Below, piece after piece: positions 18,881 through 37,743 of a DNA stretch of 64,000 nt (position 1 is its first letter; the number at the start of each line of letters is the position of its first letter). Source of the DNA: an uncultured Gemmatimonadaceae bacterium (GTDB lineage Bacteria > Gemmatimonadota > Gemmatimonadetes > Gemmatimonadales > Gemmatimonadaceae); NCBI GenBank assembly GCA_963740355.1, contig CAVUDW010000003.1:192001-256000 (forward strand), written 5' to 3'. The notes below the pieces were generated by a model that worked only from the letters and a program-made list of their open reading frames with translations, made no database searches and had not been told where the DNA came from. The translations under genes and the position numbers were made by a program.

Positions 18881-19009
18881 TGGACTACCGACACACACTT
18901 CACGAGCATCATCACTGCGAGCGTCACGGGGTGCTGGGCTTCTGAATCGGGAACGACACGCCGGAATATAAGTTTCGTGTCCACAGGTTCCTGTCCCCCG
19001 CCCGTTCCC

Positions 19010-20672: not shown

Positions 20673-20709
20673 GACGCGGCGTGAACAGTGTCTCCGTTCA
20701 CGCCGCGTC
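20673..20709. terminator. Hairpin between convergent genes (probable bidirectional terminator)
   Basis: GACGCGGCGTGAAC-N9-GTTCACGCCGCGTC, a perfect 14-bp stem. Confidence 0.75.
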
Positions 20710-20737: not shown

Positions 20738-21880
20738 CTAGCCGGCGCTGGGCAGCGCGTCCGCGGGTGGCACGTCCATCACCCCTTCGGCGGTCTCGAT
20801 GATCAGCTGATCCACGACGGCCTTCAGGTCATTCGTCTTCGCGAAGGTTGCCAGCTGTCGATCGGCACTCGATCCTTCGGCGAGAATCTTGTACGCGTAC
20901 TCGACTTCCTTGCGCGTGCCCAGTTCGTCGACGATGTCCCCAAGGAACCAGTCGAGAAATTCGCGGATCAGCTGCGGCGCGGGAAGTTCGACCTGCTTGC
21001 CGAAGTCGATCAGCTTGCCGCCGAGCCCATATCGCACGGCGCGCCACTTGTTCTCCTCGATCAGGGCTGAGGAGTAGACGCGGAACGTCGTGTTGTCGCG
21101 CCGCATCTTGTAGAGCTTTGCGATCAGTGCCTGCAGGATGGCCGCGATGCACACCGCCTCGTCGACGCGGGTGCAGACATCGCAGACGCGGAATTCGAGC
21201 GTCGGATAAGTGCCATGCGGCCGGATGTCCCACCAGATCTTGTGCGACCCGGGAATCGATCCTGTTTCGACGAGGGTATCGATGTACGAGGTGTAGTCGT
21301 AGTACGAGTTCAGCAGCGGTGGCACACCGGAGCGCGGGAAGGCGCGGAACACGACACTGCGATATGAGCGCAGCCCCGTCTCACGCCCGTACCAGAACGG
21401 CGAACTGCTGGTGAGGCAGAGGATGTGCGGCAGGAAATAGCGCGCCACGTTGCAGGCATCGACGAGGAAGTCCTTGTCCTCGATGCCGATGTGCACATGC
21501 GTACCGAAGATCAGCAGGCGCTGGGCGAGGTCGCCCATGTCATTGCGCGTGCCGAGATAGTGATCGTACGGCGTGATCTCCTGCGTCTGCCAGTTCGCGA
21601 AGGGGTGGGTGCCTGCGGCGGCGATGCGATATCCCTTCTTCGCCGCCAGTTCCATCACGCCCTTGCGCAGCATGACGAGTTCCTTGCGCACCTCGGCCGG
21701 CGTCTGGCAGATGTTGGTGCCCACCTCGATGATCGACTGGTGCAACTCCGGCTTCACCTGCGTCAGCACGCGGTGGTCTTCGGCCAGGAGCTGCGTCACG
21801 TACGACACCAGATCTCGCGAGACCGGGTCGATGATCTGGTACTCTTCCTCGACGCCCAGGGTGAGGGATGGTGCCTTCAT
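20738..21880 (-). CDS. Carboxylate-amine ligase, YbdK/GCS2 (glutamate-cysteine ligase-like) family
   Basis: TLGVEEEYQIID, ELHQSIIEVGT, AAGTHPF, IFGTHVHIG, SSPFW, FPRSG, IWWDIRP, TLEFRVCD, ENKWRAVRYG. Confidence 0.93.
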   Translation of the reverse strand: MKAPSLTLGVEEEYQIIDPVSRDLVSYVTQLLAEDHRVLTQVKPELHQSIIEVGTNICQTPAEVRKELVMLRKGVMELAAKKGYRIAAAGTHPFANWQTQEITPYDHYLGTRNDMGDLAQRLLIFGTHVHIGIEDKDFLVDACNVARYFLPHILCLTSSSPFWYGRETGLRSYRSVVFRAFPRSGVPPLLNSYYDYTSYIDTLVETGSIPGSHKIWWDIRPHGTYPTLEFRVCDVCTRVDEAVCIAAILQALIAKLYKMRRDNTTFRVYSSALIEENKWRAVRYGLGGKLIDFGKQVELPAPQLIREFLDWFLGDIVDELGTRKEVEYAYKILAEGSSADRQLATFAKTNDLKAVVDQLIIETAEGVMDVPPADALPSAG

Positions 21881-21949
21881 GGGTCGATTCCGGCTGGGGT
21901 GTGGCCTGCAAAGCGGAGGTGCGCCGGCGGCGCCTGCCGCAGAATAGTC

Positions 21950-23319
21950 CTAACGTGGCTGTACAAGAAAGGTGGGCACCGTGGACCCACCGCCCGCCGA
22001 GACGTTGAGCAGTGCGGCCGTCGACAAGCGGCAGAGCCAGCCGTCCGAGTAGGCGCCGTCGCAGAGGAAGGGCGCGGTGTCGTACATGCGGTCGATCACC
22101 TGTGACGCGCCGTCCACCAGCGACGGATATCCCTGCGACGGAATGCCGACCCGTTCCTGTACCACGTACGGATGCTCGACGGCGGTGCGCAGCGCGGCGC
22201 TCCACGTGTCACCATCGACCGTCCACCCGAGCACGATGCCAGCGCCACCGTAATCGTCGTTCGGCTTCAGCACGAAGCGATCGCGGTGCTGGGCCGCATA
22301 CGACAGCAGGTCGATTTGCTCGCCATGAAAGGTCGTGGAGCGTTCCTCGACCACCCGTGTCCACGGGATGCACGACGTCACCGCGGCATGCTGGTCGGCC
22401 GAGAGGAAATGTGCGTTGCGCTCGTCGGTGAGTGCTGCCAGCGATGCCTTCTTGTGCAGGAACTTGCAGCGCGGTGGATTGACCATGCAGACGTTGCCAT
22501 CGCGATAGGCACGGAAGACCGGATGATCGGCGCCACCCCGTTCAGCCAGCTCGTGCAACAGGACGCGCTTGTAGAGCAACGTGACCGGCGTGCCGGCGAA
22601 GGTCAGCGTCGTGCCGTCGTAGGACGCGTCACGCGGATCGACGATCGAGCACGGGATCCCCAGGTGCCGGAAATGCGTCTGGAAAATCTCGAACTCGCTG
22701 GCGGTCGGCACTTCCTTCCAGTCGATGATCCCGATCTGCGGCACTTCGCGAACACCGCGCCAGGCCGCCCATGCGTCGAGCACGGCGCGAATGACACCAT
22801 GCCGCGTCGGGACGGGGATCAGCTCCCAGTCACGTGCAAACCGTCGTGTCACCGGCAGGTCGCTGAACATGTCGGCCAGCGCGTCATTGTAGCCGGCGCC
22901 AGCAGGCGTTTCCGCGTTGTACTCGGTGAGTGAGATCTCGCCCGACTCGTCATTGACGAAATAGTCGAGTCGCGAGGTCGGGCTGGCCGACGGAAATCCG
23001 GGATCGATGTCCACCAATCCCTCCTCCCAGTCGGCGAGCCGGAACTGCTGCCGAACCGTCGGGTCGCTGAGGGCGGCGGCGAGGATCGCATCGAAGGCCG
23101 GCATCAGCCGCCGCGTCAACTGCTGCACGCGATCGTACTGCCAGCGCGTGACGAGCCGCGGGCGCAACACGGTGCAGAGTGGCCGGCCGCCGAAGATCAG
23201 CCCGCGCGAGGCGAGCTGTGAGGTCATCAGCGACGAGGACTCCTGAGCCAGTGCCGAATCGGCCAGGAGGTCATGCCACGCACTGATGGCATTGGTGGCG
23301 GTACTGCCCTGCTCCATCA

Positions 23320-23320
<1 letters not shown>
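21950..23320 (-). CDS. Circularly permuted ATP-grasp ligase (glutathionylspermidine-synthase-like)
   Basis: SRLDYF and EYNAETPAG occur before FVLKPNDDYGGAGIVLG and YVVQERV (permuted order); C-terminal LLNVSAGGG. Start overlaps the upstream stop (TGATG). Confidence 0.85.
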
Positions 23321-24264
<944 letters not shown>

Positions 24265-24286
24265 GTGTGCTGCCCTTGTTGGTGAG

Positions 24287-25009
24287 TTAGTCGTGTCCGC
24301 TGACGTACATCCGGATCATCTTTTCCCAGTACGGCCAGTCGTGTGACCAGCCATCCCAGATGCGGAGCGCGTTGCCGACGCCCTTGCTCCACAGCAGCGA
24401 CGAGAACTGCTCGTTGTTGCGACAGCTCGGGTCATCCCGCCCGATGGCCATGATGATGTCGATGCGCCGCATCGCCTCGAGCCGGTTGTGATCCTGCTCG
24501 TGCGCCATGAACGCCATCGGGTTCGCCCAGTAGACATTGTGATCCATGTGTCCACTGGCCTGCCGGCTGATGTCGTACAGGCCGCTGAGGCCGATGATGC
24601 GATTGACGAGGTGCGGGAAGCGCAGCCCGAACGACATCGCGTGGTAGGCCCCGAAGGAGGCACCGGCGGCGATCACGAACGAATTCCGGTTGCGGTGATG
24701 CATGAACGGCATCACCTCATCCTTGATGTACGCGTGGTACTGCAGGTGGCGGTAGGCGCGGGCGCCCGGGTGCCGGCCCTTGTCGTACCAGCTCTCGTGG
24801 TGCACATGATCGACCGAAAAGATCTGCAGCCAGCCGTTGTCGATCTGGTCGCGCAGCACATGCTGCATCTTGCGGTCGGTCCATTCGCGATGGCTGCCGA
24901 GCGAGGTCGGAAACACCAGCATCTTGGCGCCCGCGTGCCCCCACACGTGCAACCCCATCTCCTTGCCGTCCAGTGCCGGGCTCCGCCAGGACTTGTACTC
25001 GTGGTGCAT
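24287..25009 (-). CDS. Putative esterase (alpha/beta hydrolase, esterase/antigen-85-like family)
   Basis: WRSPAL, WGHAG, LVFPTS, GASFG nucleophile elbow, SGLYD, HDWPYW. CAGGAG RBS; start ATG 25009 overlaps the upstream stop. Confidence 0.88.
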   Translation of the reverse strand: MHHEYKSWRSPALDGKEMGLHVWGHAGAKMLVFPTSLGSHREWTDRKMQHVLRDQIDNGWLQIFSVDHVHHESWYDKGRHPGARAYRHLQYHAYIKDEVMPFMHHRNRNSFVIAAGASFGAYHAMSFGLRFPHLVNRIIGLSGLYDISRQASGHMDHNVYWANPMAFMAHEQDHNRLEAMRRIDIIMAIGRDDPSCRNNEQFSSLLWSKGVGNALRIWDGWSHDWPYWEKMIRMYVSGHD

Positions 25010-25830
25010 CAGTTTCTCCTGTCGGACTTGGGAACGGCGAGCAACGCGGGAAGTGCCTTGCGGAACCGGCGACCCCACGCGCTTTCATGGTGCACGCCAA
25101 GCGAATCTTCGACCCACCGCAGCCGTTCCCCGGGCAGGTATCCCTTCTCCACCAGCATGTCACGCATGCGTCGCGCGTTCGCCAGCGTCCGCTCGCCTTC
25201 ACGCGCGCCGATGTCGAGGTAGATGCGCGAGTCGACGAATGGCTGCCCGCGCACCCAGTCGAAGATCGCCCCCTGCGCGAACCAGAGCGACGGGCTCATG
25301 ACGGCCGCGAAACCGTACACATCGCTGCGCGCGAACATCGCATAGAGCGAGAGCAACCCACCCATCGACGAGCCGGCGACGCCGGTATGCTCGCGCGCCG
25401 GCAACGTGCGATACCGGTCGTTGATCACCGGTCGCAGCACATCCGCCATCCAGGTCAGGTAGGTGGCCGCGGCACCGCCGCCGACACGCTCGTCCATGAA
25501 CGGGCTGTACTCGTCGATTCGATGCTGCGACGCATGGTGAACGCCGACGATGATGGCATCGGCGCCCAGCCGCGAGGCCGAGACCAGTTCCTCACCCAGC
25601 CCCCACGAGCCGGCGAACGAGGTCCCTTCCTCGAACAGGTTCTGCCCATCCTGCATGTAGATCACGGGATACCGACGCACTTCCTCGTCATAGGCCCCGG
25701 GCAGGTGCACCACCACGGTGCGCATCTCATCCGGATTCGGGCCGGGGATGTCCGTCACCAGCTGATGACGGCCCGCCTGCGTCCTCGTACGAAACAACCG
25801 CCGCAAGGAGCGGCGCAAACGCGTGGGCAT
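25009..25830 (-). CDS. Putative esterase (alpha/beta hydrolase)
   Basis: RYPVIYMQDGQNLF, RIDEYSPF, GSSMGG nucleophile elbow, IYLDIG, HHESAWGRR. Confidence 0.9.
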   Translation of the reverse strand: MPTRLRRSLRRLFRTRTQAGRHQLVTDIPGPNPDEMRTVVVHLPGAYDEEVRRYPVIYMQDGQNLFEEGTSFAGSWGLGEELVSASRLGADAIIVGVHHASQHRIDEYSPFMDERVGGGAAATYLTWMADVLRPVINDRYRTLPAREHTGVAGSSMGGLLSLYAMFARSDVYGFAAVMSPSLWFAQGAIFDWVRGQPFVDSRIYLDIGAREGERTLANARRMRDMLVEKGYLPGERLRWVEDSLGVHHESAWGRRFRKALPALLAVPKSDRRN

Positions 25831-25833
25831 GGA

Positions 25834-27051
25834 TTACGACGCGTAAAGTTGGAGATCGGTGCCGACAGCATCGGCAATCAGGCAGGCCTGCTCGAAGTCC
25901 GGATGACGAACCGTGACATACCCATCGGAAATCAGCGTCAGGATCCAGTCACGCCGCGTCGCACCGACCGGCAGCAGGTCGACGTGCACGATGTGTTCGC
26001 CGAACCGCTGGATCAGCTGTTCGAGGCCAGAGATACGGCGAATGGTGCCGTGCCCCTGTGCGCGCTTGAAGATGTTGACGGTGGTGTACTTCCGCTTCAC
26101 GTCGATCGAGAAGGTGCCCTTCAACTCGGCCTCGGCATAGCCCATGTAGAGGTCAATGTCCGAGACGTAGTTCATGAGGTCCACAGTGCGCGCGCCGGGC
26201 GGGCGGGCCGCGATCTCGCCGAACACCACTTCACCGTCGGACTTCCGGTACCACTCCATGTGGGTGAACGCGTTGCCCGGGTTCATCGCCTTCAGCACGT
26301 CCTCACCCATCTTGCGGCCGCCGGCCACCCAGTCGGTGTCCACGTCGCGCAGGCAGAGCGTCTGCGGGCTGATCCACTCCACCTGACGCGCAACCAGCGG
26401 GCGGGGACGGTAGAAGCCAACGTTGAAGAACTGCATCTCGCCGTTGATGCAGATCGTGTCGAAGGTGAATTCCTCGGCTTCGATGAACTCCTCGATGTTC
26501 ACGTGGTCGATGTGCGGCATGCGCTTGATCGCCGCCTCGAGCTCCTTCGCATCATCGACACGGAATGTGTCCATCGAACCGGCGCCGTCGATCGGCTTGA
26601 TGATCAGCGGATAGCCGATGTACTCGGCCGCCGCGCGAACCTCTGCGGCAGTGGTGGCACCGCGATGCTTCGGCGTCCGGATCCCCGCCGCTGCCACACG
26701 CGCCTTCATGATGTCCTTGTTCCGGAACGCGATGGCGTCGTCGATGCTCATGCCCGGCACGCCGAGGGCGGCGCGAAGCTTGGCCGCCAGCACCACGCCA
26801 GGTTCCCAGAGGCAGATCACGCGATCGAAGGAGAGCTGCGACCAGTGCGCCGTGACTTCCACCACTACCGCGTCTTCCTGGTTCAGCTGCGACGTCTGCA
26901 GGTAGCCGCTGAGGTGGCGTCGCGTCATCTCCGGGAGGTTGCCAACCGGGACGTCACTGATGCCGTACACGTTGGCGCCGTAGGTGGACAACCCGCGGCA
27001 GAAGAGCGGCATTTCGTCGGGATACCCCGGCGCAATCATCAACACGTTCAT
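25834..27051 (-). CDS. ATP-grasp domain protein (L-amino-acid-ligase / carbamoyl-phosphate-synthase-like)
   Basis: FRNKDIMK, GYPLIIKPIDGAGSMDT, IEEFI, FTHMEWY, FGEIAARPPG. Confidence 0.88.
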   Translation of the reverse strand: MNVLMIAPGYPDEMPLFCRGLSTYGANVYGISDVPVGNLPEMTRRHLSGYLQTSQLNQEDAVVVEVTAHWSQLSFDRVICLWEPGVVLAAKLRAALGVPGMSIDDAIAFRNKDIMKARVAAAGIRTPKHRGATTAAEVRAAAEYIGYPLIIKPIDGAGSMDTFRVDDAKELEAAIKRMPHIDHVNIEEFIEAEEFTFDTICINGEMQFFNVGFYRPRPLVARQVEWISPQTLCLRDVDTDWVAGGRKMGEDVLKAMNPGNAFTHMEWYRKSDGEVVFGEIAARPPGARTVDLMNYVSDIDLYMGYAEAELKGTFSIDVKRKYTTVNIFKRAQGHGTIRRISGLEQLIQRFGEHIVHVDLLPVGATRRDWILTLISDGYVTVRHPDFEQACLIADAVGTDLQLYAS

Positions 27052-27097
27052 TCAGCACCCCTTGCAGAAGCGTTCCGTCGCAAGCACGACCGCGTGC

Positions 27098-28318
27098 CTA
27101 TCCAAGTTCCACGTGCACCAATTCCACGACGCGCCGGATCGCACGCTCAACGACCGCCGTCTCCGGGTGACGGAGGATGATGTAGCCATCGCCCTCGTAC
27201 GTCGCCGCCGGCGGCTGGCCGATCTCCGGCAGCTTCACGTCACAGACCATCGCACCGACTTCCTCGTGCACGCGGTCGATGCCGCGCACATGCCGCACCA
27301 CGCCACTCCCCTGCCCCCGCAAGAACGCCGCAGCCACCGCGTACTTCCGCTCCGGCGGCGTGAATTCACCATACACCATCAGGTTCGCCCACGCACCTAC
27401 GAAATCGACATCGTTGGCGCGGCTGATCAGCGTCGTGATCTGCGCACCGGGCGGTCGCGCCGCCACCTCTGAAATAGCCACGCTGCCATCGGCACGCCGG
27501 AACCATTCCATGTGCGTCAGGCCGGTGGTCTGGCCCAGCGCGGTCAGTGCTTGTACCGCCGCATCCTTGATGTCATCGAACATCGGATGGTCCACCTCGC
27601 GCGGCAGCACCACCACCCATTGAATCCACGGATTCCGCAGCACTTCCAGCGGCGTGGGGTGATAGTGCGTGAGCGAGTGCCAGACCGCCTTACCGTCGAT
27701 CGAAACCGTCTCGAACGAGTGTTCGGAGCCGGTGATGAATTCCTCCAGCATCAGCGGCGACGCCACCGACGGTCGCGTCATGTCGAGCGCCTCGCTCAAC
27801 GCCTGTGCATCGTCGACCCGATACGTGGACTGCGCGCCGGCACCAGCCAATGGCTTCAGCACCAGCGGAAATCCCACCCGCTCGGCGAAGGCAATCGCAT
27901 CCACGTACTTCACCACCAACGCATGTTTCGCACACGGCAGGCCGCTGGCGCGCAGCACATCCTTCATCCGCGACTTGTCGCGGAAGTTGAGCGCAGCCTC
28001 CACTGGCAGGCCTGGAATGCCCATCGACTCGCGCACCTGAGCCAGCGGCACCTGCAACTGCTCGTAGGCACCGAACAGGCGCTCCACGCCACCGATCCGT
28101 GCTGCGACCTGCTCCACGGCGTGCCGCAACTGTGCCAGGTCCAGCACGTCATCGACACGCCAATGCTGCACGATCACGTCGCGCGTGGCCGGCGCGGCAT
28201 GCTCGACCCAATCCGAACTGATCACGCCGAGCTGCACACCAGGCAGCGCGCCGATCGCCTCCACCATCCTCGACGCGTTGTCCGAGAGACGCGGCGCGAC
28301 GAAGATCACCGGGATCAC
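27098..28318 (-). CDS. ATP-grasp domain protein, paralogue of the adjacent gene
   Basis: FRDKSRMK, GFPLVLKPLAGAGAQST, LEEFI, LTHMEWF, ISEVAARPPG. The GTG start overlaps the GH57 stop (GTGA). Confidence 0.88.
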   Translation of the reverse strand: MIPVIFVAPRLSDNASRMVEAIGALPGVQLGVISSDWVEHAAPATRDVIVQHWRVDDVLDLAQLRHAVEQVAARIGGVERLFGAYEQLQVPLAQVRESMGIPGLPVEAALNFRDKSRMKDVLRASGLPCAKHALVVKYVDAIAFAERVGFPLVLKPLAGAGAQSTYRVDDAQALSEALDMTRPSVASPLMLEEFITGSEHSFETVSIDGKAVWHSLTHYHPTPLEVLRNPWIQWVVVLPREVDHPMFDDIKDAAVQALTALGQTTGLTHMEWFRRADGSVAISEVAARPPGAQITTLISRANDVDFVGAWANLMVYGEFTPPERKYAVAAAFLRGQGSGVVRHVRGIDRVHEEVGAMVCDVKLPEIGQPPAATYEGDGYIILRHPETAVVERAIRRVVELVHVELG

Positions 28319-29910
28319 GACAGCGCCGCCCGCAGCGCCGGGAGAATCTCGGGGAAGCAGTCGTCACGCGTCTTCAACTCGGTTGCGAAGGCATGCGCAT
28401 CCGTGAAATCGCCACTGGCGAAGCTGTCGTGCATCTTGGCCAGCAATTCCTCGAGATCGGAACAGTGCGAATGGAAGCGGTGATCCGCATAGTCCGCAGC
28501 TTCCGCCATCGTGATGATGAACTGCCAGTCACTCGACTGGGCGAGCAGGAGCGTGCGCGCAGCCTGCTCGAGCGACGTGTGCGCCAGCGGATCGCCGAGC
28601 GCGCGCCCCGCGATTTCCCAGAACGCATTCTCGAGCGGCCACAGTCGGCGCCAGGTGTGCGCGACCTTCGGCCCCACCCAGGTGGACCAGTCAGCGTGAG
28701 CACCCCAGGAGCCCGGCTCCACCGGAATGGCCGGCGCATGCGGATTGTCGCGCAAGTGCTGTGACGCCATCACCGGACGCAGCAACTGCGAGTGCTGCAA
28801 TTCGCGATACAGCTTGTTGAGGAACTCGGGGCCTTCGTACCACCAGTGGCCGAACAGCTCGGTGTCGAACGGCGCCATGATCAGCGTGGTGCCGAACGGA
28901 TGCTGTTCGCGAGCGATCGAATTCAACAGTGTGGCGAAGTGTCGCGCATGCTCCTCGACCTTGTTCTGTGCGACTTCCGGCCAGTACGGATGCTTGTGGC
29001 CGAGGTCCACGGTACGACCAGTGATGCGCCACAGCTTCAGGCCACCATTGTGATGCGTCTTGTGGAACTCGAGGTATGCCCCGTCACCCGGATAGCCGCC
29101 GTCCGCGCTCCAGATCTGGGCGGCCGTGCGCTGGTCACGTGCAAGCGCCGCGACATGCCCTTCACCATTCTCCTGCTTGATCCGATAGGCGCGATACGCG
29201 CTGCGTTCCTTGTGACGCCCCTGCACCAGCGGTGCATCGAGGGTCACGTACTGGAAACCGGCCGCGCGAACCTCGTGCTCGATGCCGTGCCGAATGCCAC
29301 GATTCGGTGCCTTCGGCAAGGGCTCCCACCAGCCGCCGGGACGATACGCGCACTCCGGCAACCAGCAGCCCACCGGCGTGCGACCGAAGAGTCGCTCGTG
29401 CTCACGGCGGCCAAGCTGCAGCTGGAACTTGATGCTTTCATCGCGACCGAGGAGCGGCAGGAAGCCGTGTGTGGCGGCAGAGCCCGTGATCTCGATCCGG
29501 CCTTCGTCGGCCAGCCGCTTGAACTCGCCGAGGATGTCGGAGTTGAGCGAGCGATAGAGGTCGCGATACTTGGTCAGCGTCGCTGCATGCACGCCGCAGA
29601 CATGGCTCAAGCCATCGTCGCCGTTGGCTGCGAACGCTTTCCCTTCCGTCTCGTAGCTCTCGAGCTTGCCTGCGATCCACTTCTCGAAGATTGCCGGGAA
29701 TGTGGGATGCGCGAGCTGGTTGGCGAGAATCGGCGTGATGCCGAGGGTGAGCGGCGCCCAGACGTTGTCACCTTGCAGCCACCGCATCTTCTCGATCAGC
29801 GGCAGGTAGGTCTCGACGGTGGCCTCGGACAACCAGTCGCTGCCGTGCGGCCAGTCGCCGTGATTGAGCACCCACGGGAGATGCGAGTGCAGCTGTAGGA
29901 CGAAGTCCAT
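28315..29910 (-). CDS. GH57 1,4-alpha-glucan branching enzyme (DUF1957 C-terminus)
   Basis: HSHLPWV, ETYLPL, ATHGFLP, WLPECAY (nucleophile), PFDTELFGHWWYEG (acid/base), AQSSDWQFI. Confidence 0.92.
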   Translation of the reverse strand: MDFVLQLHSHLPWVLNHGDWPHGSDWLSEATVETYLPLIEKMRWLQGDNVWAPLTLGITPILANQLAHPTFPAIFEKWIAGKLESYETEGKAFAANGDDGLSHVCGVHAATLTKYRDLYRSLNSDILGEFKRLADEGRIEITGSAATHGFLPLLGRDESIKFQLQLGRREHERLFGRTPVGCWLPECAYRPGGWWEPLPKAPNRGIRHGIEHEVRAAGFQYVTLDAPLVQGRHKERSAYRAYRIKQENGEGHVAALARDQRTAAQIWSADGGYPGDGAYLEFHKTHHNGGLKLWRITGRTVDLGHKHPYWPEVAQNKVEEHARHFATLLNSIAREQHPFGTTLIMAPFDTELFGHWWYEGPEFLNKLYRELQHSQLLRPVMASQHLRDNPHAPAIPVEPGSWGAHADWSTWVGPKVAHTWRRLWPLENAFWEIAGRALGDPLAHTSLEQAARTLLLAQSSDWQFIITMAEAADYADHRFHSHCSDLEELLAKMHDSFASGDFTDAHAFATELKTRDDCFPEILPALRAALS

Positions 29911-29915
29911 GGTGA

Positions 29916-31589
29916 TTAGCGAGCGGAGAGGACGGTACGATACAGATCGCGATAGCGCTCTTCCGAGCGTTCCCAGCCAAAGTCCCTCGCCATGGCGTCA
30001 CGCATCATCCGGAACCACTGGTCCCGGTCACGATAGGCAACGATGGCGCGTGCGATTGCCTCGGCGAACGCCGACGCCGAGAACTCATTGAAGACGAATC
30101 CGGTGACTCCATCATGCACCGTGTCCGCGAGACCGCCAACCCGCCGGACCAGCGGAACCGTACCGTAGCGCTGTGCGCGCATCTGCGTGAGGCCGCAGGG
30201 CTCGTAGCGGCAGGGCATGAGCAGGATGTCGCCGCCCGCCATCAGGCGGTGTTCGCGTTCGTCGGAGAAGTGTGTATTGATGAAGACGCGATCCGGGTAC
30301 CGCGCGGCAATGGCGCGCAGGCCGTCCACATACCGATGGTCACCGTTACCGAGGAAGACCCATTGTGCCTCGGCATTGAAGATCCAGGGATTCTCGAGGA
30401 TCAGGTCGAGCCCCTTCTGCTGCACGAGGCGCGCGGTCATGACGAAGATCGGAACATCCTGGCGCTCGGCGAGGCCCAGTTCGCGCTGCAGCGCCTGTCG
30501 GCAGACCGCCTTGTTGCCGATGTCCTCGCGCGAGAAGGGCGCGGCGATGTCCGGATCGCGGGACGGGTCCCAGCGCGTCTGGTCGATGCCGTTGAGGATG
30601 CCGACGAAGCGATCGCCCTTGAGCTGGAAGTTCTCGTGGAGGCCAAAGCCCCCTTCCGCTGTGCGGAGTTCCTCGGCGTGCGTCATGCTCACGGTGGTGA
30701 CCGCGTCGGCGAAGGAGATGCCGCCCTTGAGCAGGTTCATGCGGCCGTACCACTCGAAGCGGTCGAACGAATAGAGCGACATCGGCAGGCCGACGTCGTG
30801 CATGGTCTCCGGCGAATAGTGCCCCTGAAAGCCCGCGTTGTGGACCGTGAGCACCGTGGCCACGTCGCGGTGGTAGGGGCTATCTGCATACCAGGTGCGG
30901 AGATAGGCGAGTGCGAGACAGGTGTGCCAGTCGTGCGCGTGGAGCAGGACGGGAGCCGCGGTGATCCGCGGGAGCACGCGCATCGCGGCGGCGCAGAGGA
31001 AGGCGTAGCGTCGGGCACTATCGGCGTAGCTCCCGGTCTCGTCGCCATAGATGCCGGAGCGATCGAAGAAGTCGCGGTTGTCGATGAAGTAGACCGACGG
31101 CGGCGGTGCGGTGCCGCGCATGGCGATGATCTCCGTGGCGGCCTCGACAGGAAGCTTGTACAGCTGGGCACCGTGTGAACGGTAGGCGACCTCGACGGTG
31201 AATGGACCGTCGACCGGCTCCAGATTCGGGAACTGATCACGAATCTGCCTGTACAGCGGCATCAGGATCGCAACGTTGAGTCCGGCAGCAGCCTGATACG
31301 CAGCGAGGCTCGCGACCACCTCACCGAGACCACCGGTTCGTGCGATCGGAGCGAGCTCGGCCGTCAAGTGCACGACGGACACCGGCCTCGCATCGTTCGA
31401 CTTCAGCGGCTCCGACGGCGTCCGCTTGAGAAAGCGACCATCGGGACCACGAACCGCCTGCCCCGGCTTCGCACGCGCCGTTTTCTCAGCGGCACGTTTG
31501 GCTTTTGCGGCTGGCTTGGCGATCGCCTTGGGCGCGGGTTCTGGCGCCGTGGTGGGTTTCGCAGCCGGCTTGGGAGTCCGAGGAGGCAT
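29916..31589 (-). CDS. glgA: Glycogen synthase (GT5) with a Lys/Ala/Pro-rich N-terminal extension
   Basis: AELAPIARTGGLGEV, HAHDWHT, TVHNAGFQG, GILNGID, RLVQQKG, MPCRYEPCGLTQMRAQRYG, VGGLADTV. Start ATG 31589. Confidence 0.93.
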   Translation of the reverse strand: MPPRTPKPAAKPTTAPEPAPKAIAKPAAKAKRAAEKTARAKPGQAVRGPDGRFLKRTPSEPLKSNDARPVSVVHLTAELAPIARTGGLGEVVASLAAYQAAAGLNVAILMPLYRQIRDQFPNLEPVDGPFTVEVAYRSHGAQLYKLPVEAATEIIAMRGTAPPPSVYFIDNRDFFDRSGIYGDETGSYADSARRYAFLCAAAMRVLPRITAAPVLLHAHDWHTCLALAYLRTWYADSPYHRDVATVLTVHNAGFQGHYSPETMHDVGLPMSLYSFDRFEWYGRMNLLKGGISFADAVTTVSMTHAEELRTAEGGFGLHENFQLKGDRFVGILNGIDQTRWDPSRDPDIAAPFSREDIGNKAVCRQALQRELGLAERQDVPIFVMTARLVQQKGLDLILENPWIFNAEAQWVFLGNGDHRYVDGLRAIAARYPDRVFINTHFSDEREHRLMAGGDILLMPCRYEPCGLTQMRAQRYGTVPLVRRVGGLADTVHDGVTGFVFNEFSASAFAEAIARAIVAYRDRDQWFRMMRDAMARDFGWERSEERYRDLYRTVLSAR

Positions 31590-31860
31590 GAGTTCGTTTC
31601 CGCGCGAGGGCACGCGCCGCCCGGGGAGATCCTCGGGGTGTGTCGATGGAGAAATGACGAGAGAACCGCGAGAACCGCGCGAGGCTGCCTCGGTCGCGAG
31701 CGAATGTGCCGACACTGCCAGCGAGCACTGCAGACCACTTTGGCAAGGTGCGCAGCCACCCCTCACAATTCCAGTAGGGGCACGGGTGCGGGACGGAATT
31801 GCCACATGTGCGTCTGTAGGCAACTGCCCGACTCAACCAGATCGCTCTAGTTTAGGTTAC

Positions 31861-33999
31861 GTGACCAATCCAATCCCCAGCCGGATCGCCGGCCTGCAAG
31901 AGCTCGCGAGCAATCTCTCGTGGAGCTGGAACCGTGAAGCGCGTGCGCTTTTCGCGTCCATCGATGACCGTTTGTGGCTCGCCACGCGCCACAACCCCGT
32001 CACTTTCCTCAAGCGCGTCTCGCCCGAGCGACTTCAGGCCTGTGCCGACACCCCGGCATTCCGCGCGCAGTATGACGAGGCGATGCACTGGGTTCGGACC
32101 GAGTCGCAAACCGACAACACCTGGTTTGCGAAGACGTATCCGGAGCTGACGCAGTCGAAGATCGCGTACTTCTGCGCTGAGTTCGGCCTGCACTCATCGG
32201 TCCCGATCTACTCCGGCGGCCTCGGCGTGCTGGCGGGCGATCACTGCAAGACGGCGTCGGACCTCGGCCTTCCACTGGTCGGCATCGGCTTGCTGTACCG
32301 GAACGGCTACTTCGACCAGCGCATCAATGTCGATGGCTGGCAGGAGAACATGGATGACACCTTCGACCTCGCCAGCACACCGATCACGCCAGTCCTGAAC
32401 GCCGATGGCACCGACCTCACGGTCTCGGTGCAGGTGGCAGGCCATGAAGTGCTCGTGCGCGCGTGGCGCCTGATGGTGGGCCGCGTGCCACTGTTGCTGC
32501 TCGACACCGACTTGCCGGCCAACCGTCCGGAAGATCGTGAGCTGCTGAGCCGTCTCTACGCCGGCGGTGTGGACCTGCGCCTGCGCCAGGAATGGCTGCT
32601 CGGCGTTGGTGGCGTGCGCATCCTGCGCGCGCTCAAGATGGAGCCGGATGTGTGGCATGCGAACGAAGGGCACGCCAGCTTCATGTTCATCGAGCGCCTG
32701 CGCGAACTGCGCGAGAAGGGCGTCGAGATGGCGGAAGCGATCACGAAGGTGCGTCGCGCCTCGGTGTTCACGACGCACACACCAGTGCCGGCAGGTCACG
32801 ATGTGTTCCAGCGCACCGCTGTCGAGGCGGTGCTCGGCCCGGTGTGGAAGGAGCTCGGTGTGGACGCCGATACCTTTGCGAACTACGGCTTCCATCCGCA
32901 TTACGGGAAGGACCAGTTCCACATGACTGCATGCGCGGTGCGCTTCGCCTCGAAGGTCACGGGTGTGGCCAAGATGCACGGCGAAGTCTCGCGTGAGCTG
33001 CTGCACCCGATGTGGCCCAACCGTGCGGTGAATCAGGTGCCGGTCGGTCACGTCACCAACGGCGTGCACCTGGCCACCTGGATGGCCAACCCGATCATGA
33101 GCACGCTCGACCGGCATCTCGGTCGCGATTGGGGCTTCACGCTCGACAATCCCGATACGTGGAACCGCATCATGAAGGTGCCGGATGCCGACCTCTGGTC
33201 AGCGCATCAGGAACTGAAGGATGTGCTGGTCGACCGCATCATCGAGAAGGCCCGTCGCAGCTTTGCGCGTGGGCACAAGGAAGCGACGCAGACGGTCGGA
33301 TCAGGGGTGCTGCTCGATCGCACGAGCCTGATGATCGGCTTCGCGCGTCGCTTTGCGACCTACAAGCGTGCGGATCTCCTGTTCCACGATCCGGAGCGCC
33401 TCCGCAAGATCCTCACGAACCCGAATGCACCGGTGCAGCTGGTGTTCGCGGGCAAGGCCCATCCGGCCGACGTGCCGGGCAAGACCGTCTTGCAGCGTGT
33501 GTATCAGTTCACACGGGATCCGCGCTTCGAAGGCCGCGTGGCGTTCATCGAAGACTACGACATGCATATCGCCCATCTGTTGGTACAGGGCGTGGACATG
33601 TGGATGAACCTCCCGCGTCCACCGCTCGAAGCCTCGGGCACCAGCGGCATGAAGGCGGCGCTGAACGGCGTGCCCCAGCTTTCCACCATCGATGGCTGGT
33701 GGGCGGAAGGGTACGACGGCACGAACGGTTGGGCCGTCACGGCACCGAAGAACGGTGACGAGGACGCAGCGGCAGCGAACAACGTGTATGAATTGCTGGA
33801 ACGTGAAGTCGTGCCGCGCTACTACGATCGTCCGATGCGCGATGCGGTGCCCACCAAGTGGCTCGCCACGATGAAGCACAGCATCCGTCAGGCCGGCCGA
33901 TTCTTCACCGGCGCCCGCATGGTGCAGCAGTACACGCGGGAGTACTACGCGCCGGCGATCATCGGCGGCGACTTCCCTGATGATCCGCCGACGGCGTGA
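31861..33999 (+). CDS. glgP: Alpha-glucan (glycogen) phosphorylase
   Basis: AYFCAEFG, YSGGLGVLAGD, NEGH, FTTHTPVPAGHD, TNGVH, ARRFATYKR, AGKAHP, EASGTSGMKAALNG (PLP lysine). Start GTG 31861. Confidence 0.95.
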   Translation: MTNPIPSRIAGLQELASNLSWSWNREARALFASIDDRLWLATRHNPVTFLKRVSPERLQACADTPAFRAQYDEAMHWVRTESQTDNTWFAKTYPELTQSKIAYFCAEFGLHSSVPIYSGGLGVLAGDHCKTASDLGLPLVGIGLLYRNGYFDQRINVDGWQENMDDTFDLASTPITPVLNADGTDLTVSVQVAGHEVLVRAWRLMVGRVPLLLLDTDLPANRPEDRELLSRLYAGGVDLRLRQEWLLGVGGVRILRALKMEPDVWHANEGHASFMFIERLRELREKGVEMAEAITKVRRASVFTTHTPVPAGHDVFQRTAVEAVLGPVWKELGVDADTFANYGFHPHYGKDQFHMTACAVRFASKVTGVAKMHGEVSRELLHPMWPNRAVNQVPVGHVTNGVHLATWMANPIMSTLDRHLGRDWGFTLDNPDTWNRIMKVPDADLWSAHQELKDVLVDRIIEKARRSFARGHKEATQTVGSGVLLDRTSLMIGFARRFATYKRADLLFHDPERLRKILTNPNAPVQLVFAGKAHPADVPGKTVLQRVYQFTRDPRFEGRVAFIEDYDMHIAHLLVQGVDMWMNLPRPPLEASGTSGMKAALNGVPQLSTIDGWWAEGYDGTNGWAVTAPKNGDEDAAAANNVYELLEREVVPRYYDRPMRDAVPTKWLATMKHSIRQAGRFFTGARMVQQYTREYYAPAIIGGDFPDDPPTA

Positions 34000-35279
34000 G
34001 ATCGGTCGTCATTCACGCGCACTGCTACCAACCACCGCGCGAGGACCCGTTCACGGGCCTCGTGCCGGTGGAGCGGTCGGCGGCCCCGTTCCATGACTGG
34101 AACGCGCGCATCACTGATGAGTCGTACCTCCCACTCGCCAACGCACGCGACCTGACGGCGCGTGCGCGCATCAACCTGTTCGAGTGGATCAGCTTCAACG
34201 TCGGTCCCACGCTGGCTGTGTGGCTGGAACGTGAGGCACCGGCGGTGCTGGATGCGATGCGCCTTGGCGACGCGCGCTCCGTCGAGCGACTCGGGCACGG
34301 CAACGCCATTGCGAGCGCCTACAATCATGTCATCCTCCCGCTCGCGTCGCCGCATGAACGCAAGCGGGAAATCTTCTGGGGCCTGCACGACTTCCGTGTG
34401 CGATTCGGTCGTGAGTCGCGCGGTTTCTGGTGTCCGGAAACCGCGATCGACGAAGACACGGCGCAGGCGCTGGCGGAGGCCGGTGTGCAGTTCGCCATCG
34501 TCGCACCGTACCAGATCCGCGACGGTGGGCACGACGGTCAACCACGCGTCTGGCGCGGCGCCAAGGGGCATTCCCTGCACCTCACGCCGTACCATGGTGA
34601 GCTGAGTGGCTCGATCGGCTTCGGTGACATGGCGCAGAATGGCGAAAAGCTCGCACATGCCCTCGCGCACATCGCCGAAGAACGTGGCATCGCCAGCATT
34701 GCGACCGACGGCGAAACCTTCGGCCACCACAAGCGGCACGGCGAGATGGCGCTGGCCGAGGCGATCGGTGCGCTGCGCCGCAACCAGAAGGCCACGGTCA
34801 CGAACTTCGCTGCGATCATCAATGCGCAGGAGAAGTGGCACGACTGCCAGTTGCTGTCGCCCAGTTCCTGGAGCTGTGCGCATGGCATCGAGCGGTGGCG
34901 CTCCAACTGCGGCTGTGGCGCGACACACGAAACCGGTCGCGCGCAGGAGTGGCGTGGTCCGCTTCGCGCGGCGTTGCGCTGGCTGGCGGAGGCGCTCGAC
35001 ACCGCTGACGGTGATGATCCGGAGCTGACGCCCCAGCGGAAGGCGCGCTATGGCATGTTCACCAGTTGCGGCTGGTTCTTCGATCGTTTCGAAGGGCATG
35101 AGCCGCGCTTGTTGATGCGCATGGCCGCCTTCGCCATCGCGGGGCGGAAGGACGCTGAGGAGCTCGAGGCCGGACTGGTGGCGCGCCTGATCCATGCCCA
35201 CGCCAATGATCGCTCGCTCGGCAATGGTGCCGATATCTGGTATCGCGACTTTCATCACCTGATCGCCGCGACGAAGTAG
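33996..35279 (+). CDS. GH57-family DUF3536 glycoside hydrolase (compact form)
   Basis: HAHCYQPPREDP, PFHDWNARITDESY, SFNVGPTL, YNHVILPL, FWCPETA, ATDGETFGHH, SWSCAHGIERWRSNCGC, MFTSCGWFF. Start overlaps the glgP stop (GTGA). Confidence 0.9.
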   Translation: MRSVVIHAHCYQPPREDPFTGLVPVERSAAPFHDWNARITDESYLPLANARDLTARARINLFEWISFNVGPTLAVWLEREAPAVLDAMRLGDARSVERLGHGNAIASAYNHVILPLASPHERKREIFWGLHDFRVRFGRESRGFWCPETAIDEDTAQALAEAGVQFAIVAPYQIRDGGHDGQPRVWRGAKGHSLHLTPYHGELSGSIGFGDMAQNGEKLAHALAHIAEERGIASIATDGETFGHHKRHGEMALAEAIGALRRNQKATVTNFAAIINAQEKWHDCQLLSPSSWSCAHGIERWRSNCGCGATHETGRAQEWRGPLRAALRWLAEALDTADGDDPELTPQRKARYGMFTSCGWFFDRFEGHEPRLLMRMAAFAIAGRKDAEELEAGLVARLIHAHANDRSLGNGADIWYRDFHHLIAATK

Positions 35280-37725: not shown

Positions 37726-37743
37726 ACTCCTTCGGAGACGGCA

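What the first reader, a model, noticed from the sequence alone, without database searches (positions are those of the whole stretch)
20738..35279. Glycogen genes fused into one operon with five amide ligases and two esterases: candidate undescribed peptide/amide-alpha-glucan system
Seen in sequence: nine co-oriented genes, glgA > GH57 branching enzyme > ATP-grasp > ATP-grasp > esterase > esterase > RimK-like ATP-grasp > circularly permuted ATP-grasp > YbdK/GCS2 ligase. The junctions in order are 5 nt, GTGA overlap, 46 nt, 3 nt, TGATG overlap, 22 nt, TGATG overlap and 69 nt, and a 14-bp hairpin closes the unit. glgP and a DUF3536 GH57 sit divergently. No precursor peptide, transporter, NRPS or glgC is visible. 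Established: ATP-grasp and GCS2 enzymes form amide bonds via acyl-phosphates; the esterase family includes antigen-85-type acyltransferases that esterify sugars; classical glycogen metabolism needs no amide ligase. Inference: the operon makes a non-ribosomal (probably gamma-glutamyl-containing) oligopeptide or polyamide that is attached to or removed from glycogen/maltodextrin by the esterases. Alternatives are a nitrogen store co-regulated with the carbon store, or peptide tagging of the glycogen enzymes. I know of no characterised product for this arrangement.
Basis: partly seen in the sequence, partly recalled or inferred. Interest (0 to 1): 0.88.

Follow-up and report, generated by a model that had tools for sequence, protein, structure and literature searches.

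The report
Glycogen operon carrying peptide-ligase and esterase modules
A soil-type bacterium has joined its glycogen-building genes in one operon with five ATP-dependent amino-acid ligases and two esterases, a combination that recurs beside glycogen genes in several phyla, matches no described pathway, and probably makes and recycles a small peptide together with, or on, stored glycogen.

Summary
They are GT5 glycogen synthase, the genome's only branching enzyme (GH57), two L-amino-acid-ligase-type ATP-grasps, two PF00756 serine esterases, a small divergent ATP-grasp, a ligase with the glutathione-synthetase fold, and a YbdK/GCS2 ligase.

The ligases and esterases form two portable modules: M1 (AG1-AG2) and M2 (Est1-Est2-small ATP-grasp-GS-like ligase-GCS2, plus a C26 hydrolase in relatives).
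- Of 80 AG1 loci, 41 carry an alpha-glucan gene.
- In an even sample of Gemmatimonadota, 21 of 37 AG1 loci do.
- A differently built variant, with an S51 peptidase and a third ligase, sits inside glycogen loci of Gemmatimonadota, Acidobacteriota and Planctomycetota.

Both modules also occur away from glycogen genes. No carbohydrate-binding module was found.

Best reading (0.45): stepwise synthesis and hydrolytic turnover of a short gamma-glutamyl peptide, co-regulated with glycogen.

My four literature searches found no description. This scan has already noted the S51-type variant on eight other genomes; the GCS2/GS-like variant here extends it.

The parts
29916..31589 (-). GT5 glycogen synthase (GlgA2) with a 69-aa Lys/Pro/Ala-rich N-terminal extension; catalytic part begins near 31382
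   Evidence: TIGR02095 486 bits (cut-off 328), PF08323 223 bits; start and extension
28315..29910 (-). GH57 1,4-alpha-glucan branching enzyme; the only branching enzyme found in the genome
   Evidence: PF03065 122.5 bits + BE_C 70.9 bits; NF041566 421 bits, below its equivalog cut-off of 920; no GH13 GlgB over cut-off; no paralogue
27098..28318 (-). AG1, L-amino-acid-ligase-type ATP-grasp; GTG start overlaps the GH57 stop codon (GTGA)
   Evidence: ATP-grasp Pfam hits; closest solved structures are L-amino acid ligases 4wd3 (E 1.2e-18), 3vot and BacD; forms the N-terminal half of natural fusion P0121
25834..27051 (-). AG2, paralogous L-amino-acid-ligase-type ATP-grasp (33% identical to AG1)
   Evidence: PDB 3vot E 1.2e-20 and 4wd3 E 1.3e-17; forms the C-terminal half of P0121; fused to Peptidase_S51 in P0125 and to M20_dimer in P0126
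25009..25830 (-). Est1, PF00756 serine esterase
   Evidence: PF00756 88.9 bits; GxSxG Ser and His conserved; nearest solved structures are CE1 feruloyl esterase 5cxu and IroE-like siderophore esterases 6gud
24287..25009 (-). Est2, divergent PF00756 serine esterase; ATG overlaps the Est1 stop codon (TGATG)
   Evidence: PF00756 32.2 bits; nucleophile Ser and His conserved, invariant C-terminal G-H-D in type-A copies; junction
23320..24264 (-).
   Evidence: No Pfam hit; rimK_fam 41.8 bits, below cut-off; profile against PDB: Ddl E 2e-6, RimK E 0.11; 55 invariant columns shared with the S51-variant copies; 532 representatives at E<=1e-30
21950..23320 (-). Circularly permuted ATP-grasp ligase with the eukaryotic glutathione-synthetase / glutathionylspermidine-synthetase fold
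   Evidence: Model pLDDT 86.6; Foldseek 2hgs E 3e-17 TM 0.71, 3kal, 1m0w, 9cjn, 2io8; ESM Atlas clusters named CP type-2 ATP-grasp / GSP_synth
20738..21880 (-). YbdK/GCS2 carboxylate-amine ligase; the only GCS2 member in the genome
   Evidence: PF04107 192.7 bits; NF010039 506.8 bits (cut-off 371); single copy
20673..20709 (-). 16-pair GC-rich hairpin closing the operon, between convergent genes
31590..31860 (.). Divergent intergenic region between glgA and glgP, the likely shared control region
   Evidence: Start codons; one weak sigma-70-like match on the + strand at 31740-31769, not above chance
31861..33999 (+). Alpha-glucan phosphorylase (GlgP, DUF3417 type)
   Evidence: TIGR02094 766.8 bits (cut-off 191.7); PF11897 + PF00343
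33996..35279 (+). GH57/DUF3536 protein, short 427-aa form
   Evidence: PF03065 60.7 bits, PF12055 65.1 bits; 427-429 aa in 5 same-genus-like loci against a median of 682 aa elsewhere

Best explanation
The nine genes are one operon. It couples the cell's main glycogen-building genes (a GT5 synthase and its only branching enzyme) to two portable modules. M1 is a heteromeric pair of L-amino-acid-ligase-type ATP-grasp enzymes (AG1-AG2). M2 consists of two PF00756 serine esterases, a small divergent ATP-grasp, a glutathione-synthetase-fold ligase and a YbdK/GCS2 ligase. Each ligase activates a carboxylate as an acyl phosphate and adds one residue, so together they build a short non-ribosomal peptide that probably contains a gamma-glutamyl bond. 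The hydrolases take it apart again: the two esterases here, plus a C26 gamma-glutamyl-hydrolase-type enzyme that is adjacent in relatives and unlinked in this genome. The compound is made and turned over under the same control as glycogen, as a companion nitrogen or stress reserve or metabolite. Shown: gene order and coupling, family and fold assignments, modularity, natural fusions, and enrichment beside glucan genes. Inferred: the peptide product, the pairing of ligases with hydrolases, and co-regulation. Not shown: any covalent link to the glucan.
For: Operon anatomy. Families: AG1 and AG2 are closest to solved L-amino acid ligases. The GS/GspS fold is assigned at TM 0.71. GCS2 scores over both curated cut-offs. 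Both esterases keep Ser and His. AG1 and AG2 occur fused in gene order in P0121. AG2 occurs fused to Peptidase_S51 (P0125) and M20_dimer (P0126), which points to a peptide product. M2 is autonomous: in 20 of 20 sampled AG1-less Gemmatimonadota genomes the block Est2/small ATP-grasp/GS-like/GCS2/C26 recurs, with Est1 in about 12; Est2 is missing from two of them (L146 and L148). Ligases are matched by hydrolases in both variants, as in other reserve systems. Enrichment beside glucan genes: 41 of 80 AG1 loci; 21 of 37 loci from an even phylum sample; at least 29 of 76 CPAG-positive genomes have GT5 glgA within 15 kb (hand-collated; the place table is truncated). A rough expectation for a random gene is about 1%, taken from the size of this genome's two glycogen loci. 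Genome level: 37 of 39 AG1-positive genomes have GT5 glgA against 142 of 262 AG1-negative ones. The cassette-linked glgA is the only GT5 glgA in 3 of 5 genomes checked, so these are the housekeeping glycogen genes.
Against: PF00756 members known to me (recalled) are esterases, thioesterases or acyltransferases, not peptidases. A pure peptide would therefore not explain the two esterases that belong to the conserved trio; Est2 was not detected in 2 of the 20 M2 blocks (L146, L148). The cassette is inserted inside glycogen clusters in several different arrangements and is translationally coupled to the branching enzyme here, which is tighter than co-regulation alone would need. Kin are not independent: genus g23 supplies 13 genomes and genus g82 supplies 13. 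No product, transcript or activity was observed.
Confidence: 0.45

Rival explanations
1. Reversible covalent decoration of the alpha-glucan. The accessory ligases build a short peptide or amino acid. An ATP-grasp, most plausibly the small divergent one kept in both the M2 and the S51-type variants, activates its carboxylate and esterifies a glucose hydroxyl of glycogen or maltodextrin. The two PF00756 enzymes then transfer or remove it, and C26 or S51 peptidases recycle the released peptide.
For: Est1, Est2 and the small ATP-grasp recur in both the M2 and the S51-type variants, while the other ligases and the peptidases are swapped: GCS2 + GS-like + C26 in one, third Lal + S51 in the other. 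In one search, Est2 was absent from 2 of the 20 M2 blocks (L146, L148). Two esterases imply an ester bond, and the neighbourhood encodes a polyol polymer as a possible acceptor. The cassette is embedded between glycogen genes in different orders: GlgP | cassette | GlgB-GlgA-GH57 in 13 of 14 S51-type loci, and between GH57b and the GH57 glucanotransferase in 4 of 4 loci of genus g16. It overlaps the branching-enzyme stop codon here. All 16 of 16 module-bearing genomes without adjacent or GT5 glycogen genes still encode a GH13 branching enzyme. ATP-grasp enzymes can form esters (D-Ala-D-lactate ligases, microviridin ligases; recalled), and the small ATP-grasp's best specific PDB matches are Ddl-type.
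Against: No carbohydrate-binding module was detected in any cassette protein. The N-domain of the long esterase form shows no likeness to CBM48 (hhalign probability 0.4%). M1 and M2 frequently lie far from glycogen genes. AG1 alone, without esterases or glucan genes, occurs in Chloroflexota (0 of 5), Bacteroidota (0 of 9), Proteobacteria (0 of 2) and Myxococcota (0 of 2). Cassette-linked GlgA is not a dedicated cross-phylum clade. Branching enzymes are common, so the 16 of 16 result is weak.
Confidence: 0.3
2. M2 is simply this lineage's low-molecular-weight thiol pathway, making a glutathione-like gamma-Glu-Cys-X peptide. GCS2 makes the gamma-glutamyl bond, the GS-fold ligase adds the next residue, the PF00756 enzymes act as thioesterases on S-acyl adducts, and C26 degrades the peptide. 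It has no chemical link to glycogen, and the proximity reflects shared stress regulation or history.
For: GCS2 lies next to a ligase whose best structural matches are human, plant and yeast glutathione synthetases. No canonical gshB (best 19 bits), no PF04262 gshA and only one GCS2 were found in a genome that is 94.5% complete. S-formylglutathione hydrolase is a PF00756 member (recalled). M2 stands alone in 16 of 20 sampled loci.
Against: CPAG is present in only 76 of 301 Gemmatimonadota genomes (29 of 127 genera) and in 0 of 70 genomes of families f6 and f7, so it is not housekeeping. Est1 and Est2 match siderophore and feruloyl esterases, and no S-formylglutathione hydrolase model scored at E<=0.01. 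The S51-type variant keeps the esterases and the small ATP-grasp without GCS2 or the GS-like ligase. Enrichment beside glgA is far above chance.
Confidence: 0.1
3. Peptide tagging of proteins: RimK-, Pup- or LysW-like addition of residues to a glycogen enzyme or granule protein, with the hydrolases removing the tag.
For: RimK-size ATP-grasp and CP type-2 ATP-grasp families include protein-modifying enzymes (recalled). Type-A Est2 has an invariant C-terminal G-H-D. GlgA here carries a basic disordered N-terminal extension.
Against: AG1 and AG2 are closest to ligases of free amino acids. The RimK membership test fails. No carrier or tag gene fits in the 3-69 nt gaps. No alpha-E or transglutaminase partner of tagging-type CP ATP-grasps is present.
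Confidence: 0.07
4. No functional coupling: two mobile metabolic modules landed next to glycogen genes by chance and were inherited together.
For: The modules are portable and often unlinked. Much of the adjacency lies within one phylum, where shared ancestry inflates the counts.
Against: Adjacency recurs with different gene orders, different glycogen genes (GH57 BE, GH13 GlgB, GDE, GlgP) and different cassette variants, in Gemmatimonadota, Acidobacteriota, Planctomycetota and three unclassified MAGs. Coupling here is by overlapping stop and start codons.
Confidence: 0.05

Closest known systems
L-amino acid ligases of the ATP-grasp superfamily (RizA 4wd3, BL00235 3vot, BacD/YwfE 3vmm)
   Same: AG1 and AG2 have the same size (about 406 aa) and ATP-grasp architecture, and these are their best solved relatives (E 1e-18 to 1e-20). 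Weak LAL_C2 hits appear in the natural AG1-AG2 fusion.
   Different: They come as an obligate-looking paralogous pair that is sometimes fused. They are not in an antibiotic cluster. They are linked to esterases, peptidases and glycogen genes. Their substrates are unknown.
Glutathione biosynthesis (gamma-glutamylcysteine ligase + glutathione synthetase) and glutathionylspermidine synthetase
   Same: A GCS2-family ligase is adjacent to a ligase with the eukaryotic GS / GspS circularly permuted ATP-grasp fold. A C26 hydrolase adjacent in relatives could reverse the gamma-glutamyl bond.
   Different: The GCS2 protein meets the YbdK 'carboxylate-amine ligase' model, not the Glu-Cys ligase equivalogs. 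Identity to GS is 13-17%. The pair is always accompanied by a third ATP-grasp and usually two esterases. Its distribution is patchy (76 of 301 genomes).
Cyanophycin metabolism (CphA synthetase, CphB/CphE cyanophycinase of family S51)
   Same: The logic is shared: ATP-grasp-driven, template-free amide synthesis co-encoded with its own hydrolase, as a reserve compound. The sister variant of this cassette carries an S51 peptidase, and AG2 occurs fused to S51.
   Different: There is no Mur-ligase-type domain. The match to CphA is only 38 bits in the ATP-binding stretch (cut-off 850). This genome has no S51 homologue of the cassette type. Esterases have no counterpart in cyanophycin metabolism.
Enterobactin / salmochelin esterases (Fes, IroD, IroE) and CE1 feruloyl esterases, antigen 85 acyltransferases (PF00756)
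   Same: Est1 and Est2 belong to PF00756 with the catalytic Ser and His retained. The nearest solved structures are IroE-like and CE1 enzymes. The long form in the S51-type variant has an Enterochelin_N-like N-domain (25 bits, below cut-off).
   Different: No siderophore synthesis or uptake genes are nearby. The proteins appear cytoplasmic, with no signal peptide evident on reading (not tested with a predictor). They are paired with ATP-grasp ligases.
Classical GlgC-GlgA and GH57-type glycogen clusters (Thermus/Thermococcus-like)
   Same: The GlgA, GH57 BE, GlgP and GH57/DUF3536 genes pass their family tests and are the organism's main glycogen genes.
   Different: No described glycogen operon contains amide ligases or esterases. 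Literature searches found none.

Membership tests
L-amino acid ligase (Lal) ATP-grasp family (AG1, AG2) | ATP-grasp domain with pre-ATP-grasp N-domain, about 400 aa | tested here: met
   PF02222 / PF13535 over cut-off for AG1 and AG2
L-amino acid ligase (Lal) ATP-grasp family (AG1, AG2) | Closest characterised or solved relatives are Lals | tested here: met
   4wd3, 3vot and BacD are the top hits for both proteins
L-amino acid ligase (Lal) ATP-grasp family (AG1, AG2) | LAL_C2 C-terminal domain (PF18603) | tested here: inconclusive
   Seen only in fusion P0121, at 25.3 bits against a cut-off of 29.4; not reported for the window proteins
L-amino acid ligase (Lal) ATP-grasp family (AG1, AG2) | Forms alpha-dipeptides from free L-amino acids | not testable with these tools
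   Needs an enzyme assay
YbdK / GCS2 carboxylate-amine ligase | PF04107 and the NCBIfam YbdK-type model over their curated cut-offs | tested here: met
   192.7 bits (cut-off 21); NF010039 506.8 bits (cut-off 371); the Glu-Cys ligase equivalog NF010043 scores 338.5, below its cut-off of 409
Circularly permuted ATP-grasp (eukaryotic GS / GspS superfamily) | Whole-length fold match to GS / GspS | tested here: met
   2hgs TM 0.71, 3kal 0.71, 2io8 0.61, all probability 1.00, on a model of pLDDT 86.6
Circularly permuted ATP-grasp (eukaryotic GS / GspS superfamily) | Pfam CP_ATPgrasp_2 over the gathering score | tested here: not met
   19.6 bits against 32; ESM Atlas neighbours carry the name (a lead only)
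Circularly permuted ATP-grasp (eukaryotic GS / GspS superfamily) | gamma-Glu-Cys and glycine binding residues of glutathione synthetase | not tested
   At 13-17% identity no residue mapping was attempted
RimK family alpha-L-glutamate ligase (small ATP-grasp 23320-24264) | TIGR00768 / PF08443 over cut-off | tested here: not met
   41.8 bits against 143.4; no Pfam hit; RimK structures score only E 0.11 with the family profile
PF00756 esterase (Est1, Est2) | Family model over cut-off, with nucleophile Ser (GxSxG) and His retained | tested here: met
   88.9 and 32.2 bits (cut-off 22); invariant S155 and H247 in 17 sequences
Cyanophycin system | CphA-type synthetase (ATP-grasp + Mur-ligase-like domain) and S51 cyanophycinase | tested here: not met
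   CphA model scores 38 bits against a cut-off of 850; no cassette-type S51 homologue in the genome
GT5 glycogen synthase / GH57 branching enzyme / alpha-glucan phosphorylase | Curated family models over cut-off | tested here: met
   TIGR02095 486 > 328; PF03065 + PF09210; TIGR02094 766.8 > 191.7. The GH57 BE equivalog models are below their cut-offs (421 < 920).

The most novel reading that the evidence does not exclude
Bacterial glycogen in these lineages is reversibly esterified with an ATP-grasp-built amino acid or short gamma-glutamyl peptide. The small divergent ATP-grasp plus the two PF00756 enzymes form the write/erase core, and the swappable ligase and peptidase sets define the decoration. 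This would be a previously unknown covalent modification of a storage polysaccharide.
Probability: 0.3. Interest if true: 0.92.

Novelty: new variant of a known kind. Interest (0 to 1): 0.7.

Why it matters
Glycogen metabolism is regarded as fully mapped in bacteria. Here the main glycogen locus of several soil and sediment phyla carries a conserved set of amino-acid ligases and esterases with no assigned product.

If the product is a companion reserve or stress peptide, it is a new storage or metabolite system on the scale of cyanophycin. If it is attached to the glucan, it is a new polysaccharide modification.

Either way the module is now directly testable. It has defined genes, cultured and complete-genome carriers, and two natural variants that predict which parts are core (the two esterases and the small ATP-grasp) and which are swappable.

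Tried and rejected
1. An apparent AG2-GH13 GlgB fusion (ORF cluster c52) is false. ORF listings show AG2 and GlgB in different frames, so they are adjacent genes only.
2. I tested whether the extra N-domain of the long esterase form (S51-type variant) is CBM48-like. hhalign probability was 0.4%, so there is no support.
3. A dedicated cross-phylum clade of cassette-linked GlgA was not found. Gemmatimonadota copies form one clade, and Acidobacteriota copies group elsewhere with the glgC-linked pair (quick IQ-TREE, careful search unfinished).
4. The structure model of the small ATP-grasp was too poor (pLDDT 57.3) for a fold search, so none was run.
5. Fifteen long relatives of the small ATP-grasp were scanned for fused domains. 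None had an extra Pfam domain.
6. RNA evidence for co-transcription: no RNA holder was listed.
7. The promoter/terminator scan found nothing above shuffled expectation.
8. The 2009 amidoligase survey that I recalled could not be read, as it is not held. Whether it lists this neighbourhood is therefore unchecked.
9. Literature searches returned no paper describing ATP-grasp ligases or esterases in glycogen operons.
10. The scan's own notes for this genome were empty.
12. Genome-level dependence on GT5 glgA is not strict. Twelve of the 76 CPAG-positive genomes lack it. Eleven of these were checked further: 10 of 11 also lack GH57, but 11 of 11 have a GH13 branching-enzyme match, 10 of them over cut-off.


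Full report
**What is there**

The window has 63-68% G+C. Source names of near-identical proteins and the titles of related contigs place it in a Gemmatimonadaceae genome.

On the minus strand, between 31589 and 20738, lie nine co-oriented genes:
- a GT5 glycogen synthase (TIGR02095 486 bits, cut-off 328);
- a GH57 branching enzyme (PF03065 plus BE_C);
- two paralogous 405-406 aa ATP-grasp proteins, AG1 and AG2;
- two PF00756 esterases, Est1 and Est2;
- a 314-aa divergent ATP-grasp;
- a 456-aa protein with only a sub-threshold CP_ATPgrasp_2 hit;
- a YbdK/GCS2 ligase (NF010039 506.8 bits, cut-off 371).

A 16-pair hairpin (z = -5.7) follows the last stop codon. An alpha-glucan phosphorylase and a short GH57/DUF3536 gene diverge from glgA. 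A simple promoter/terminator scan shows nothing inside the unit above chance.

**What the parts are**

- **AG1 and AG2** are closest, among solved structures, to L-amino acid ligases (4wd3, 3vot, BacD; E down to 1e-20).
  - They occur naturally fused in gene order: P0121 residues 1-406 are 47% identical to AG1, and residues 413-815 are 49% identical to AG2.
  - AG2 also occurs fused to a Peptidase_S51 domain (P0125) and to an M20 dimerisation domain (P0126).
- **The 456-aa protein** modelled well (pLDDT 86.6). Over its whole length it matches human, soybean and yeast glutathione synthetases (TM about 0.7), then the E-64 ligase Cp1B, then glutathionylspermidine synthetases.
  - For Cp1B I saw only the search listing and the start of the abstract of PMC12568646.
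  - It is therefore a circularly permuted ATP-grasp ligase of the GS/GspS kind, sitting next to a GCS2 ligase.
- **Both esterases** keep the GxSxG serine and the histidine. Est1's nearest solved relatives are CE1 feruloyl esterases and IroE-like siderophore esterases.
- **The 314-aa ATP-grasp** is not a RimK member by the curated model (41.8 against 143.4 bits). With a family profile it matches D-Ala-D-Ala ligases and biotin carboxylases better than RimK. Its family has 532 representatives at E<=1e-30 among 1.84 billion and no Pfam model. Its structure model was poor.

**Genome context**

- The genome holds a second glgA (37% identical) divergent from glgC, 2 Mb away.
- It has no GH13 branching enzyme over cut-off and no paralogue of the GH57 enzyme, the phosphorylase or any ligase. 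The window therefore carries the cell's only branching enzyme.
- It has no canonical gshB or gshA and only this one GCS2.
- A C26 (gamma-glutamyl-hydrolase-type) gene is adjacent to GCS2 in relatives. Here it sits unlinked at C3:2075742-2076512.

**Related loci**

With an AG1 alignment I fetched 80 loci from one-per-species genomes. I mapped homologues of every window protein by tblastn, clustered the ORFs and annotated neighbours.

Of the 80 loci, 41 carry at least one alpha-glucan gene within the flanks held:

| Phylum | Loci with a glucan gene |
|---|---|
| Gemmatimonadota | 31 of 43 |
| Acidobacteriota | 6 of 14 |
| Unclassified | 3 of 3 |
| Planctomycetota | 1 of 2 |
| Chloroflexota | 0 of 5 |
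| Bacteroidota | 0 of 9 |
| Proteobacteria | 0 of 2 |
| Myxococcota | 0 of 2 |

An even sample of 301 Gemmatimonadota genomes has AG1 orthologues in 39 (13 of 127 genera). I fetched 37 of these loci, leaving out the window itself and the same-genus genome G005. Of the 37, 21 carry glucan genes within 20 kb. Three layouts appear:
- **Type A** (8 loci) is window-like: glycogen genes, AG1-AG2, Est1-Est2, small ATP-grasp, GS-like ligase, GCS2 and C26, in several orders.
- **Type B** (15 loci) has AG1-AG2 alone.
- **Type C** (14 loci, 13 of them with glucan genes) reads Est2'-small ATP-grasp'-Est1' (398 aa, PF00756 with an Enterochelin_N-like N-domain)-Peptidase_S51-a third Lal | AG1-AG2. This block is sandwiched between GlgP and GlgB(GH13)-GlgA-GH57-GH57. 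The same type C layout occurs in Acidobacteriota and Planctomycetota loci.

The small ATP-grasps of types A and C align over their whole length with 55 invariant columns. Est1, Est2 and the small ATP-grasp are the trio kept in both variants. The other ligases and the peptidases are interchangeable sets.

**The second module on its own**

The GS-like ligase occurs in 76 of 301 genomes (29 of 127 genera). That includes all 24 AG1-positive genomes of families f1 and f2 other than the window's own, and none of the 70 genomes of families f6 and f7.

I fetched loci from 20 AG1-negative carriers.
- The block (Est1)-Est2-small ATP-grasp-GS-like-GCS2-C26 recurs in 20 of 20. Est2 is missing from two of them (L146, L148).
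- Glucan genes are adjacent in 4 of 20, all from genus g16, where the block is inserted between two GH57 genes.

In a type B genome (G103) the small ATP-grasp-GS-like-C26-GCS2 block lies next to GH57-GlgA-GlgP, while AG1-AG2 lies 187 kb away.

Collating the place tables by hand, at least 29 of 76 carriers have a GT5 glgA within 15 kb. The place table is truncated, so this is a lower bound.

**Genome-level profile**

- GT5 glgA is found in 179 of 301 genomes.
- It is found in 37 of 39 AG1-positive genomes and 142 of 262 AG1-negative ones.
- Twelve of the 76 GS-like carriers lack it.
- Eleven of those were checked. Ten of the 11 also lack GH57. All 11 have a GH13 branching-enzyme match, 10 of them over cut-off.
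- Five further AG1 carriers without adjacency all have GH13 branching enzymes.
- Every carrier tested can therefore make a branched glucan. Branching enzymes are common and kin are not independent, so this is weak support.
- The cassette-linked GlgA is the only GT5 glgA in 3 of 5 genomes checked. It does not form a dedicated cross-phylum clade. These are the ordinary glycogen genes.

**Interpretation**

The coupling to glycogen genes is real. It recurs with different cassette variants, different gene orders and different glucan genes in at least three phyla. In this window it extends to overlapping stop and start codons.

The ligase families, the AG2-peptidase fusions and the matched hydrolases point to stepwise ATP-driven assembly and hydrolytic recycling of a short peptide. 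Here that peptide very likely contains a gamma-glutamyl bond.

Whether the peptide is free or ester-linked to the glucan cannot be settled from sequence.
- **For a free companion compound:** both modules are portable and often unlinked, no carbohydrate-binding module is detectable, and the known fusions are to peptidases.
- **For attachment:** two esterases of a family with no known peptidase members (recalled) belong to the trio kept in both variants, the block sits inside glycogen clusters, and the small ATP-grasp's best specific PDB matches are Ddl-type. That kinship includes ester-forming ligases (recalled).

I put the companion-compound reading at 0.45 and covalent decoration at 0.30. A plain thiol pathway gets 0.10, protein tagging 0.07 and chance 0.05.

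**Novelty**

Four full-text searches found no description of ligases or esterases in glycogen operons. The 2009 amidoligase survey that I recalled is not held, so it remains unchecked.

This scan's own notes list eight earlier findings of the S51-type module on other genomes. They are leads, not evidence, but my type C loci agree with them.

The new points here are:
- the GCS2 / GS-fold variant;
- the demonstration that it is a separate portable module sharing the esterase/ATP-grasp trio;
- the AG1-AG2 and AG2-peptidase fusions;
- the retraction of a tempting but false AG2-GlgB fusion.

Noticed in passing
window 31382-31589 (-): The cassette-linked GlgA carries a 69-aa basic Lys/Pro/Ala-rich, probably disordered N-terminal extension (10 K, 7 R, 14 P, 15 A in 72 residues). 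Extensions of similar composition but different sequence precede GlgA in several other type-A loci (L013, L017, L066, L082, L092, L106). They are absent from the glgC-linked GlgA and from the Acidobacteriota copies.
   Followed up: partly
window 33996-35279 (+): The GH57/DUF3536 protein is only 427 aa here and 427-429 aa in five same-genus-like loci, against a median of 682 aa in other Gemmatimonadota. It is a conserved short form lacking most of the DUF3536 C-terminal part, not an obvious pseudogene.
   Followed up: partly
G000:C3:2258057-2260858 (outside the window): A second GT5 glgA (542.8 bits, 37% identical to the window copy) lies divergent from glgC (496 bits). The genome therefore has a classical glgC-glgA pair in addition to the operon studied here. 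The same duplication is seen in G103.
   Followed up: partly
window 16966-17769 and about 17756-18020 (-): A sulfatase gene appears split. Pfam Sulfatase positions 1-70 end one ORF, and positions 87-301 start the next ORF in another frame with a 14-nt overlap. This is either a frameshift (pseudogene) or an assembly error.
   Followed up: no
window 35470-39291 (+): A CHAT-protease protein with an N-terminal TCAD7 (ternary-complex-associated) domain is followed by a DUF7362/DUF7379 protein. This looks like a conflict or defence-type pair. PADLOC gave no hit.
   Followed up: partly
window 18740-20227 (+): A patatin-like phospholipase has weak likeness to CBASS and other anti-phage phospholipase effectors (NF041079 34 bits; PADLOC PDLC00758 44 bits). 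It is conserved downstream of the operon in same-genus loci.
   Followed up: no
G000:C3:2075742-2076512: The C26 peptidase sits directly beside GCS2 in relatives but is unlinked in this genome. It is 83% identical to the copy in L065, clearly higher than the 50-75% of the other cassette proteins against that locus.
   Followed up: no
L038, L054, L068, L071, L088 (Chloroflexota); L062, L069, L077, L078, L083, L087, L089, L090 (Bacteroidota): AG1 orthologues (52-60% identical) occur singly, without AG2, esterases or glucan genes, next to unrelated genes (GAPDH, PPDK, GDSL lipase, GH3, reprolysin-like protease). AG1 may therefore have a stand-alone role in these phyla.
   Followed up: partly
L021:8829-9833 and the neighbouring ORF: In a Pyrinomonadaceae locus, two MvdD-type (microviridin-like) ATP-grasp genes lie just upstream of AG1-AG2.
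   Followed up: no
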